A stretch of DNA of 14,559 nucleotides from the IMG/VR virus record IMGVR_UViG_2576861104_000005. The stretch is one strand, 5' to 3'. Below, one piece after another: positions 11,301 to 14,300 of this stretch; positions within the stretch are counted from its first letter, which is position 1; every line of letters starts with the position of its first letter. The position numbers were made by a program. The stretch is from a virus. Its lineage: Duplodnaviria > Heunggongvirae > Uroviricota > Caudoviricetes.

Positions 11301-14300
11301 AGGTCACCAATGCCATTTTCGGTACCCATGAGTTCCGGGCGTCAGATTATGAGATCACCACAGCACAGTTTGGCACCATTGGCATTTACAGCAATAAAGC
11401 CGAGATCAAGCAGGCAATGGACTCAGCAAGCGCGCGCATCGCAGCAGAACGGGAAGCCAATCTGAATCATGCAGTCGCCGCGCTGACTCAATCGTGGGTA
11501 ACAGCAATCAGGGAGGCCGCCACCACAGGGAAAATCACATCTGCAATAGCGGATGTCGTAAACGATGGCTCTAAATTTATGGATGCCTATCAAATGGATG
11601 CGGTGAAGTTGCCATCAGCCTATGGTCAACTCCGCTATCGCATGACCTACAACCTGGTATCAATGTTTACTGACCTTGCCATCCTTGGGCTGGTGGATCT
11701 TAACGAGGTTACGCCGGAATTGCTCAGCATGCGCAAGAATCATGTGGAGATATTGCAGAGAATTAACACGGTTCTTGCCGGGCGCACCGATGAAGAGAAA
11801 CAGGCCGACGCTGATCGGATAAACCTGGCCCTTGGCAACATCACGGAGGAAGAGATTGCCGCCAGAAACGAGAAACAAGAAGAGTTATCATCAATACAGG
11901 GTGATGCCACCAGCATAGCTCAGTCTCTTGGTCTGAATTATCGCGTATCCACCGCCGACCTGAAGATGATGTACGCACCAAAATTCGCCGCTGGCGAGGT
12001 ATTTGGGCTTCAGGAAGCCTCAGGCATGAAAGGAGTTCTTTTCCGTGCGAAAGACGCAATCAAGGCGAAATTCGGCGCTCGCTGGCTGCCAGCGAAGGCG
12101 AAGAACAGCGATTTCCCGGGTAACTGGTGGATTATCGAGACAAAACACAACGTGGCGGACGTTCTGGCCGTCATCCAACAATACGCATAACAGGAGCGCC
12201 CGGTTCGCCGGGCGTCGCATAATATGGCCACACTATCTGATACAATAAAACCGAATAAAACATATCTTGAGGCGGTACTGCGTACAGCGTTGTTAGGAAA
12301 GACAGAAGACGAATACGTTGATTTCTTCCTGTCAGGGCTACGCGGGCGATTACTGAAAAATCCACGCCTGTACCGCAGCTATGGCCCATACTGGCCGGAA
12401 ATAAAAAAATTATTACTGGAGCGCGGTTATGGTAATTTCGGTCGTCTCGTTGACCGTGACGTTCGCAAAATTTACCGTTATGACCGCCCGGCGCTGACAC
12501 TCATAGCCGCGACGCTCTACAGCCAGGAGCGTTTCGATAATGGCCAGATATACTCAGCCTGGCATTTACTGCCAGTGCCTGAAGAGGTTGACGACCAGGA
12601 CTATGAGTTTGAGTCTTACGATTTGGAAGTTGAAGCCTTAGCACAGGCTGGAGAGAAAACTTGAAAAAGCGATACTACACAGTAAAGCATGGGACGCTAC
12701 GAGCATTACAAGAGTTTGCTGACAAGCATAACGTTGAGGTGCGCAGGGAAGGGGGGAGTAAAGCTCTGCGCATGTACCGTCCTGACGGAAAATGGCGGAC
12801 GGTCGTCGATTTCAAAACTAACAGCGTTCCCCAGGGCGTCCGCGACCGGGCATTCGAAGAATGGGAGCAAATCATCATAGATAATGCATTGCTCCTGAAT
12901 GCAGATTGATTTCTTATTAGGCCACTTTATTTTTTAGAGTGGCCTAAATTACTCATAATTAGGATGTGATATGAATGTTTTTATTGATACAAATCTATAT
13001 TTAGAATTTTATCGAATGGGTAAGGATAAATTAGATGAGCTAGATAAAGTATTTGCCTTACATCAATATGGTCGTTTAAAACTTTGGTTGCCAGAACTTT
13101 TAGTGAATGAATTCTGGAGAAATCGTTCTAAAGTTCTCTCTGAAACCATAAAGGAAATTGCAAAAGACTACAAGCCCGCGCTACCACAGATTTTTAGACA
13201 GCATGAAAAACATTCACTATTTAATGATAAGGTTATAGAAGCTAGTCGGCTAAAGAATGAAATTATTACCGATATCCAGAACTTATTTAAAGAAGAGGCT
13301 TTAGCTGCCGATGTTGTAATTAAAAGGATTTTTGATGCAGCGTCTAAGATAGAGGCTGATGATGAAACAATAGAAAAGGGGAAACGCCGATTCGATCTTG
13401 GCAACCCTCCGGGTAAAAATAAATCATATGGTGATGCAGTCAATTGGGAGTGTTTGCTAAAAGCGATACCAAACGGAGAGGATATATACATTATAACTGA
13501 AGATGGTGATTATAAAAGTGCCTTTATAAAGGATGATATGAATGAGTATTTGAAGTACGAGTGGAAAAAGAAGAAAGATTCAGAACCACATATCTATGCC
13601 CGCTTATCAGAGTTTATAGGCGAGCACTTTCCTCAAGCCAGTAACTTGGCGGAAATGGAAGTTAATTTCACTATAGATGAATTACGCCGCTCAGGCAGTT
13701 TTGCCACAACACATCGAGTTGTAGCAAAGTTATTAAAATTCAATCATTTTACACAAGAGCAAATCCTAAAAATAATCGACATCTATTTTAATAATGATCA
13801 GGTTGGCTTCATTAAAGATGATGATGATGTAAAACTACTCGCCAGAAGACTAATATCACTTGGTGACGAGGATAAAGATCCTGAAGGGATGCTTGAGCCA
13901 TTCCGTGTATTTATTGATTAATTAATGTAATGGGCGTGGGCGCATAGTTAGCGCCCAAGAAGTTTAAAGATAATTATCTCTGCCGGTTAATGAACCTTGA
14001 GGCACTTTCCGTGCGGTCATTTCATGAGTAGCTTGAATTATATTCACAAGGGAGCTTAGTAACGACGGTTCTTGGCGGGCCTCAACTTCTCCAGCCACTG
14101 CCCTGATGTAGTCGGAGCTTGCAACGTTGTTGTATTCCGTTGCGAAGCAGCATAACAACGTCAGAACGTGCTCTGTCGTTATTTCGCTCCAGTTGATGTT
14201 GAAAAATTCATCGCCTTTTTTGTCATGTTCGGAATCGAAGATGCTTTGGTGGAGGATGTATTTGCCGGATTCCTTGCGCGGTAACTTGATCGCTTTCTGG

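What the first reader, a model, noticed from the sequence alone, without database searches (positions are those of the whole stretch)
12917..12947. Perfect 10-bp inverted repeat exactly at the backbone/cargo boundary
TTAGGCCACT-N11-AGTGGCCTAA sits in the 61-bp gap between lxc and the AT-rich gene, where composition switches. It may be a stem-loop ending the darB-ulx-lxc transcript, which would make the cargo gene independently expressed from the CATAAT at 12953-12958 and the AGGA RBS. It may equally be an operator for a dimeric regulator or a recombination scar marking where the cargo was exchanged.
Basis: seen in the sequence. Interest (0 to 1): 0.45.

Follow-up and report, generated by a model that had tools for sequence, protein, structure and literature searches.

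The report
Stem-loop separating lxc from PIN cargo
The inverted repeat is real and conserved, but it is an ordinary cargo-specific RNA hairpin that most likely insulates an acquired PIN-nuclease gene from the phage operon upstream, not a shared recombination site.

Summary
The repeat is confirmed: TTAGGCCACT-N11-AGTGGCCTAA at 12917-12947. As + strand RNA it extends to a 13-bp stem with a U5 loop (about -19 to -20 kcal/mol), far beyond chance. It starts 7 nt after the lxc stop, where G+C falls from about 50% to 36%.

The lxc|mat gap is the known variable "res-mod" region of P1-like phage-plasmids. I found about 16 junction types there, mostly AT-rich cassettes.

This repeat occurs only with the PIN/DUF4935 cassette: 23 of 23 plasmids, 29 E. 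coli genomes, and the matching IMG/VR and metagenome contigs. It is absent from every other cargo type, so it is not a shared exchange site. Nearly every other type has its own unrelated strong hairpin just after the lxc stop.

Between two PIN-cassette lineages the repeat has 1 change in 31 nt, against 24% at four-fold sites. That change keeps a G·U pair only in the + strand RNA.

There is no U-tract, no cognate regulator, no second copy, no flanking repeats, and no C1-operator or late-promoter match.

Best reading (about 0.5): a leaky terminator or 3'-end protective stem-loop ending the darB-ulx-lxc transcript. Ordinary; low interest.

The parts
12917..12929 (+). Left arm of the stem (perfect 10-bp core 12917-12926, TTAGGCCACT, plus TTA)
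   Evidence: Position 12922 is C in the window and T in the divergent lineage, giving a U·G pair in + strand RNA.
12930..12934 (+). Loop TTTTT
   Evidence: Invariant in all three haplotypes.
12935..12947 (+). Right arm of the stem (TAG plus the perfect 10-bp core 12938-12947, AGTGGCCTAA)
12661..12909 (+). lxc, the last gene of the conserved darB-ulx-lxc unit. The hairpin starts 7 nt after its TGA stop.
   Evidence: Homology to other P1-like elements ends at 12907-12912.
12910..13963 (+). The variable AT-rich cassette (36% G+C): hairpin 1, the PIN/DUF4935 gene and hairpin 2
12954..12959 (+). It is not conserved (TATAAT / CATAAT / CTTAAT).
   Evidence: Not called by the promoter scan.
12961..12964 (+). 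AGGA Shine-Dalgarno sequence, 6 nt before the ATG
   Evidence: Conserved in all haplotypes.
12971..13921 (+). Cargo gene: a 316-aa protein with an N-terminal VapC-like PIN domain and a C-terminal helical domain
13937..13957 (.). Second hairpin (TGGGCGC-N7-GCGCCCA, -12.9 kcal/mol) between the convergent PIN and mat stops. Probable 3' end of the cargo unit.
   Evidence: Conserved in both cassette lineages.
13964..14434 (-). mat, the right-hand conserved flank of the hotspot, here cut short by a transposon end at 14403

Best explanation
The repeat is a cassette-specific intergenic stem-loop that works at the RNA level in the + (lxc) sense. It punctuates the darB-ulx-lxc transcript 7 nt after the lxc stop. 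It most likely acts as a weak or leaky intrinsic terminator, as a 3'-exonuclease barrier, or both. That would insulate the horizontally acquired, potentially toxic PIN-nuclease gene from upstream transcription. The PIN gene would then be expressed at a low level, by attenuated read-through (which keeps its AGGA site in the mRNA) or from a weak local promoter.

Shown: the structure, its linkage to the cassette, its sequence constraint, and the recurrence of unrelated hairpins at the same position in other cassettes.

Inferred: termination or insulation itself, its leakiness, and how the PIN gene is transcribed.
For: 1. It forms a strong hairpin: 13 bp, U5 loop, about -19 to -20 kcal/mol, z -4.3 to -6.1.

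2. It sits 7 nt after the stop of the last gene of a conserved co-directional unit. In P1 the lxc promoters are thought to be constitutive (PMC8546580), so anything downstream is exposed to read-through.

3. The position is functionally conserved even though the sequence is not.
- Among 80 IMG/VR lxc loci plus GenBank records there are about 16 junction types. All but the P1-type mod-res junctions carry their own unrelated hairpin 0-25 nt after the lxc stop.
- Junction 60-mers have a median energy of -18 kcal/mol against -11.4 for background (Mann-Whitney p = 1e-6). 13 of 16 reach -14 or better, against 27% of background windows and 8% of AT-rich windows.
- A second co-directional cargo (346 aa) has the same layout of lxc, hairpin, gene.

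4. Directionality. In 5 of the other types a U-rich tail follows the hairpin on the + strand. Only 1 type has one on the - strand.

5. Constraint. Between two PIN-cassette lineages, four-fold degenerate sites differ at 21 of 89 positions, the repeat at 1 of 31 (Fisher p = 0.013; binomial 0.0025), and the rest of the gap at 4 of 30.

6. The single change (C to T at 12922) keeps a G·U pair in + strand RNA and gives an A·C mismatch in - strand RNA. The two stem changes in another cassette's hairpin also keep + strand pairing. Pooled across types, main stems vary less than their surroundings (3 of 148 against 23 of 336 positions, p = 0.03).

7. DUF4935 genes are usually monocistronic (PMC5499597). 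This copy is bracketed by two hairpins.
Against: - There is no U-tract. The 3' tail is AUUACUCAUA, with a tail score of 2.55, about background. The consensus terminator scan does not call it.
- The base of the stem is three A-U pairs and only 6 of 13 pairs are G-C, which is atypical for efficient E. coli terminators (established knowledge).
- The hairpin begins 7 nt from the stop codon, so a terminating ribosome would cover its 5' arm (inference).
- P1 and P7 manage without any hairpin between lxc and mod.
- Between mat and the minus-strand cargos there is often no hairpin, so insulation of co-directional cargo is not universal.
- Measured against the average cassette divergence (8%) rather than four-fold sites, the conservation is not significant. 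The adjacent 51 nt (12961-13011) are also invariant.
- There are only three haplotypes and no double compensatory change.
- No transcript data exist.
Confidence: 0.5

Rival explanations
1. The repeat is a regulatory element of the PIN gene itself. It could be a palindromic operator overlapping a weak cassette promoter (for example TTGATT-N16-TATTTT, 12906-12933, or the CATAAT at 12954-12959), bound by a host or phage dimeric factor. Alternatively it could be a 5'-UTR hairpin that stabilises or gates the PIN mRNA.
For: - The arms are perfect 10-bp repeats with centres 21 bp apart, which is two helical turns.
- The repeat and its loop are invariant apart from one base, so both sequence and structure are kept.
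- It is strictly linked to the PIN gene and never to other cargo.
- The 51 nt around the start codon are also invariant.
Against: - The cassette has no regulator gene. The PIN protein's C-terminal domain matches helical-repeat proteins, not helix-turn-helix folds.
- A complete 96-kb relative has no further half-sites: 2 extra hits at up to 1 mismatch against 5.9 expected for all sites.
- No promoter reaches 9 of 12 matches in the gap, and the CATAAT is not conserved.
- It is not a C1 operator and not an Lpa late promoter (score 9.0 against at least 12.2 for real ones).
- The closest non-P1 homologues (65-76% identity) have upstream regions of roughly 110-210 nt (one search gives about 184 nt for L014) with no similar repeat.
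- The one substitution breaks the DNA symmetry but keeps the RNA pairing.
Confidence: 0.17
2. The repeat is a passenger with no present function. It would be the terminator of whatever gene lay upstream of the PIN gene in the unknown AT-rich donor, carried in with the cassette.
For: - It lies on the cargo side of the homology break and has the cargo's AT-rich context.
- It travels only with the PIN gene.
- PIN homologues elsewhere are often preceded by terminator-like hairpins of the upstream gene.
Against: - It is less diverged than four-fold degenerate sites (p = 0.013), and its one change preserves pairing.
- A hairpin at this exact position recurs in nearly all unrelated cassettes, which points to selection at the site rather than accident.
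- The nearest homologues found do not have it.
Confidence: 0.15
3. The repeat is a recombination site or scar: a hairpin or palindrome used by a site-specific or structure-specific mechanism to swap cassettes at the lxc|mat hotspot.
For: - It lies 7 nt from the homology breakpoint.
- Almost all cassettes begin with a hairpin.
- One empty site (L074) looks like a hybrid that joins the left hairpin of one cassette type to the right flank of another.
- GTTAGGT in the divergent lineage superficially resembles an integron core site (from memory).
Against: - The repeat is absent from every other cargo type with the same breakpoint.
- The roughly 16 junction types share no core sequence.
- The two cassette ends share no direct or inverted repeat beyond chance; a shared 7-mer occurs in 58% of shuffles.
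- The cassette carries no recombinase, and lox, which lies nearby in relatives, is unrelated in sequence.
- Both breaks coincide with the stop codons of conserved genes. That is what homologous recombination in the flanks plus selection would produce (inference).
- The arm order (GTTRRRY first) is the reverse of attC, and 31 bp is too short for attC (established knowledge).
Confidence: 0.05

Closest known systems
Rho-independent (intrinsic) terminators of E. coli and its phages
   Same: A stable stem-loop a few nucleotides after the stop codon of the last gene of an operon, with a 5-nt loop. Pairing is preserved in the sense-strand RNA.
   Different: There is no 3' U-tract (3 U in the first 8 nt). 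The base of the stem is A-U rich, and the stem is longer and less G+C rich than is typical. It is predicted to be weak or leaky. It resembles the tail-less hairpin terminators described in some other bacteria (from memory).
Intercistronic protective hairpins (REP-type or malE-malF-type 3' stabilisers)
   Same: A stable hairpin without a U-tract between two co-directional genes. It could block 3'-to-5' exonucleases and uncouple the expression of the upstream and downstream genes.
   Different: It is a single copy and not a member of a dispersed repeat family. The only other exact matches in IMG/VR are two unrelated loci with a different spacer, consistent with chance. No processing data exist.
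Phage 'morons' (autonomous promoter-gene-terminator units inserted between backbone genes; Juhala/Hendrix concept, from memory)
   Same: An AT-rich single gene that is present or absent between two conserved neighbours (lxc and mat), with a hairpin after the gene.
   Different: No convincing promoter of its own was found. The extra hairpin lies upstream of the gene, not only downstream.
Defence hotspots of P2/P4-like elements and 'variable region 1 (res-mod)' of P1-like phage-plasmids (PMC9603915; Rousset et al. 2022, as cited in PMC10879196)
   Same: Many unrelated, low-G+C, defence-type cassettes replace each other between the same two core genes. Examples here are PIN, SIR2, RelA/SpoT, GNAT and type III restriction-modification.
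   Different: Those descriptions concern gene content. The rule seen here, that almost every cassette carries its own hairpin directly after the lxc stop, was not mentioned in the papers I read.

Membership tests
Intrinsic (Rho-independent) terminator | Stable stem-loop with a short loop | tested here: met
   13 bp, 5-nt loop, -19 kcal/mol, z -4.3 to -6.1. Only 6 of 13 pairs are G-C.
Intrinsic (Rho-independent) terminator | U-tract immediately 3' of the stem | tested here: not met
   The tail is AUUACUCAUA with a tail score of 2.55 (2.29 on the - strand). It was not called by the scan, which requires at least 5 T in 8 nt.
Intrinsic (Rho-independent) terminator | Lies just downstream of the last gene of a transcription unit | tested here: met
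   It starts 7 nt after the lxc stop, and darB-ulx-lxc are co-directional.
Intrinsic (Rho-independent) terminator | Transcript 3' ends map to it | not testable with these tools
   No transcript data are available.
Operator of a dimeric DNA-binding regulator | Palindromic half-sites | tested here: met
   Perfect 10-bp arms.
Operator of a dimeric DNA-binding regulator | Cognate regulator encoded alongside | tested here: not met
   The cassette has one gene. It encodes a PIN domain plus a helical-repeat-like C-terminal domain, with no helix-turn-helix match.
Operator of a dimeric DNA-binding regulator | Overlaps a promoter | tested here: inconclusive
   No site reaches 9 of 12 matches. Weaker 8 of 12 candidates exist, and the CATAAT is not conserved.
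Operator of a dimeric DNA-binding regulator | Further sites elsewhere in the element (a regulon) | tested here: not met
   There are no other exact half-sites in the 96-kb pEA22_2. Hits at up to 1 mismatch are below the chance expectation.
P1 C1 repressor operator | Match to ATTGCTCTAATAAATTT | tested here: not met
   The only sites with up to 3 mismatches are at 1628-1644 and 5477-5493.
P1 late (Lpa-dependent) promoter | A -22 box AAGTGACTT, 4 nt, then a -10 hexamer | tested here: not met
   The best score in 12890-12990 is 9.3, the best overlapping the repeat is 9.0, and six P1 late promoters score 12.2-14. True sites were recovered at 1672 and 5408.
Site-specific recombination site (attC, lox or cix type, or transposon ends) | Conserved core shared by all exchanged cassettes | tested here: not met
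   About 16 junction types share no motif, and the repeat occurs only with the PIN cargo.
Site-specific recombination site (attC, lox or cix type, or transposon ends) | Partner site or target duplication at the other cassette end | tested here: not met
   Nothing is shared beyond 7-mers, which occur in 58% of shuffles.
Phage moron / hotspot cassette | Present or absent between conserved backbone genes, with deviant base composition | tested here: met
   RCS47-type elements have an empty 39-bp site. The cassette is 36% G+C against about 50% for the backbone.
Phage moron / hotspot cassette | Own promoter upstream and own terminator downstream | tested here: inconclusive
   A downstream hairpin is present at 13937-13957 but has no U-tract. 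No clear promoter was found.
Known RNA family (Rfam) | Match to a curated covariance model | tested here: not met
   No hits at E of 1 or below in 12500-14100.

The most novel reading that the evidence does not exclude
The hairpins that open almost every cassette at the lxc|mat hotspot may be more than terminators. They could be structural landmarks at which cassettes are exchanged, for example by template switching or replication-fork stalling at extruded hairpins. The hybrid empty site L074 would be a footprint of such an event. On this reading, the repeat in this window would be the PIN cassette's handle for that process.
Probability: 0.06. Interest if true: 0.6.

Novelty: new member of a known kind. 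Interest (0 to 1): 0.2.

Why it matters
On its own it matters little. It is an intergenic stem-loop of a familiar kind, and the variable res-mod region of P1-like phage-plasmids is already described.

Two points are useful. Second, it gives a modest positive: almost every unrelated defence-type cassette in this hotspot brings its own hairpin to the same spot after lxc, and this one is under purifying selection as a + strand RNA structure. That suggests a design rule, transcriptional insulation of toxic cargo from a backbone operon thought to be constitutively expressed. The rule could guide annotation and engineering of P1-derived vectors, and it is easy to test.

Tried and rejected
1. Conserved recombination site. 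The repeat was searched in PLSDB, E. coli genomes, IMG/VR and metagenomes. It appears only with the PIN cassette.

2. Dispersed repeat family. An exact-arm pattern with a 5-20 nt spacer gave only 2 unrelated IMG/VR loci, consistent with chance (my estimate of about 1 expected).

3. Native 5' element of the PIN gene. The upstream regions of homologues at 35-76% identity (Mixta, Logan and ENA contigs, and others) show no related repeat and no alignable sequence beyond the ribosome-binding site and start codon.

4. C1 operator, Lpa late promoter and Rfam families: no match at the repeat.

5. Operator regulon. There are no extra half-sites in the window or in a 96-kb relative.

7. Target-site duplication or terminal repeats of the cassette: none.

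8. attC-like reading of GTTAGGT...GCCTAAA: rejected because of the reversed arm order, the length, and the absence of an integrase (sequence inspection plus established knowledge).

9. The P1 P2mod promoter overlapping the lxc stop is not preserved here. The window has TGATTT where P1 has TAAACT.

10. Searching for more haplotypes to test covariation found only the same three.

11. The P1 genome paper (PubMed 15489417) is not held.

Full report
**Observation**

The window reads ...GATTGA TTTCTTA TTAGGCCACT ttattttttag AGTGGCCTAA ATTACTCATAATTAGGATGTGATATG.... The perfect 10-bp arms are at 12917-12926 and 12938-12947. With one G·T the arms extend to 13 nt, leaving a 5-nt T loop.

The repeat lies in the 61-bp gap between the lxc stop (12907-12909) and the ATG (12971) of an AT-rich 316-codon gene. 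G+C drops from 0.50-0.52 in lxc and darB to 0.36 in the cassette.

As + strand RNA it folds at -19.7 to -20.6 kcal/mol (z -4.3 to -6.1; no shuffle does as well). The - strand transcript folds less well (-15.8), because the G·U pairs become A·C mismatches.

Only three inverted repeats of this class occur in the 14.5-kb window. Shuffles of a 96-kb relative give 1.8 per 96 kb. The only correction is that CATAAT sits at 12954-12959.

**Context**

BLAST against phage, plasmid and E. coli collections identifies a P1-like phage-plasmid. The gene order is darB (5423-12190), ulx, lxc, cargo, then mat on the minus strand. Bases 1-14423 of the window are identical to IMG/VR contig UViG_2574180358_000006.

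The cargo protein has an N-terminal PIN domain (Pfam PIN_12 and PIN_8). Its C-terminal part matches the defence-candidate model PDC-S34. A confident AlphaFold model (pLDDT 90) matches VapC nucleases, with the remainder resembling helical repeats.

The lxc|mat gap is the known low-G+C "variable region 1 (res-mod)" of P1-like elements (PMC9603915). Cargos found there:

| Element or locus | Cargo between lxc and mat |
|---|---|
| P1, P7 | type III mod-res |
| RCS47 | none (39-bp empty site) |
| SJ46 | RelA/SpoT gene |
| Other plasmids and phages | SIR2, GNAT, others |
| 80 IMG/VR lxc loci | about 16 junction types, mostly AT-rich cassettes of 32-43% G+C |

Homology between elements with different cargo ends at the lxc stop codon (window 12907-12912). 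None of the other cargo types has this repeat.

A 71-nt query across the junction finds 23 plasmids, all with the PIN gene adjacent. The whole cassette finds the same 23. 29 of 5,426 complete E. coli genomes carry it, always in a P1-like context. Exact-pattern scans of IMG/VR and metagenomes recover only PIN-cassette P1-like contigs, apart from two unrelated chance hits with a different spacer.

The junction types share no core sequence. The two ends of the cassette share no repeats beyond chance. The repeat is therefore not a conserved exchange site or scar.

**What recurs instead**

Every junction type except the P1-type mod-res junctions has its own unrelated strong stem-loop, 0-25 nt after the lxc stop. 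The first 60 nt after lxc fold with a median of -18 kcal/mol, against -11.4 for windows across a 96-kb relative (Mann-Whitney p = 1e-6). 13 of 16 reach -14 or better, against 27% of all windows and 8% of AT-rich windows.

In five types the hairpin is followed by a U-rich tail on the + strand. Only one type has such a tail on the - strand. That points to termination of lxc-sense transcription.

Most cargos are on the minus strand, so there the hairpin also ends the cargo gene. Two co-directional cargos, PIN and a 346-aa gene, have the hairpin between lxc and the cargo start, plus a second hairpin after the cargo gene. In the window this second hairpin is at 13937-13957.

**Constraint**

Two PIN-cassette lineages differ at 8.5% of gene positions and at 21 of 89 four-fold degenerate sites. 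Their ulx-lxc flanks differ by only 2.3%. Divergence by region:

| Region | Changes |
|---|---|
| The repeat | 1 of 31 |
| Rest of the gap | 4 of 30 |
| Four-fold degenerate sites | 21 of 89 |

The repeat is less diverged than four-fold sites (Fisher p = 0.013). Its one change, C to T at 12922, gives U·G in + strand RNA and A·C in - strand RNA. The two stem substitutions in another cassette's hairpin also preserve + strand pairing. Pooled across types, main stems vary less than their surroundings (3 of 148 against 23 of 336, p = 0.03).

The evidence is thin. There are only three haplotypes and no double compensatory change. Measured against the average cassette divergence, the repeat is not exceptional. 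The 51 nt around the start codon are also invariant.

**Mechanism**

In P1 the lxc promoters are thought to be unregulated and constitutive (PMC8546580). Transcription therefore arrives at the end of lxc in lysogens.

The most economical reading is an RNA stem-loop that ends or attenuates this transcript, protects its 3' end, or both. That would insulate a potentially toxic nuclease gene.

It is not a canonical terminator. There is no U-tract (tail score 2.55, about background). The scan does not call it. The base of the stem is A-U rich. It also starts only 7 nt from the stop codon, so a terminating ribosome would cover its 5' arm (inference). I therefore expect leaky termination.

It is TATAAT in one lineage and CTTAAT in another. 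A start about 7 nt downstream would lie after the conserved AGGA site (inference). Attenuated read-through would keep that site in the mRNA. DUF4935 genes are usually monocistronic (PMC5499597), which fits a gene bracketed by hairpins.

**Rivals**

- *Operator.* The palindrome fits, but the cassette has no regulator, a full relative has no other half-sites, and the repeat matches neither the C1 operator nor the late-promoter box. The closest non-P1 homologues also lack it.
- *Passenger.* Disfavoured by the constraint and by the recurrence of hairpins at this position.
- *Recombination site.* Largely refuted, as described above.
- *Known RNA family.* No Rfam family matches.

**Verdict**

The feature is real, non-random and mildly constrained, but of a familiar kind. 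It is a cassette-borne, terminator-like insulator hairpin at the edge of a known defence or cargo hotspot. Confidence in the RNA punctuation reading is about 0.5. Interest is low (0.2).

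Noticed in passing
window 14403-14559: mat is interrupted at 14402/14403 by a Tn3-family terminal inverted repeat (GGGGTCTGACGCTCAGTGG...). The mat ORF is 156 aa here against 213 aa in relatives. The transposon remnant is itself cut at 14539 by an IS26-type end (GGCACTGTTGCAAAGTTAGCG; the IS26 identification is from memory). The window extends 136 bp beyond the matching IMG/VR contig.
   Followed up: partly
window 13937-13957: A second hairpin (TGGGCGC-N7-GCGCCCA, -12.9 kcal/mol) lies between the convergent PIN and mat stop codons. It is conserved in both cassette lineages, while the 10 nt beside it are deleted in one lineage. It also lacks a U-tract.
   Followed up: partly
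L031-L110 (IMG/VR lxc loci), just after the lxc stop: About 16 junction types occupy the lxc|mat gap, mostly AT-rich cassettes (PIN, SIR2 x2, RelA/SpoT, GNAT, mod-res, several unannotated, and empty sites). Minus-strand cargos often have no hairpin between mat and the cargo start. They may therefore be co-transcribed with mat from its C1-controlled and late promoters.
   Followed up: partly
L074, 4250-4282: An 'empty' site whose hairpin (GCCCGGAATTACCGGGC) matches the left hairpin of the 378-aa cassette type, joined directly to the RCS47-type right flank (ATCTTTCAGAG). It looks like a precise cargo loss or a recombinant within or next to the hairpin.
   Followed up: no
window 2593-2614: A perfect 22-bp palindrome, AACCCCGGCAGCTGCCGGGGTT, lies between convergent ORFs (2327-2581 on the + strand and 2626-3675 on the - strand). 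It is probably a bidirectional terminator.
   Followed up: no
window 1628-1644 (-), 1672-1690 (+), 5390-5408 (-): A C1-operator match with 1 mismatch (the Ossb position in P1), plus two Lpa-type late promoters equivalent to P1 LPlyz and LPpro. All were recovered by simple scans.
   Followed up: partly
window 12224-13921 compared with L010 (p28Eco12): The PIN cassette differs by 8.5% (24% at four-fold sites) between two P1-like lineages, while the adjacent ulx-lxc differs by only 2.3%. Either the flanks are homogenised by recombination while the cassette alleles are old, or the cassette was acquired twice from related donors at identical junctions.
   Followed up: partly
window 12971-13921 (protein residues 226-316): The C-terminal domain of the PIN protein is predicted with confidence as an all-helical repeat-like domain. 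It is the only part that matches the PADLOC candidate PDC-S34. The protein's function in defence is untested.
   Followed up: partly
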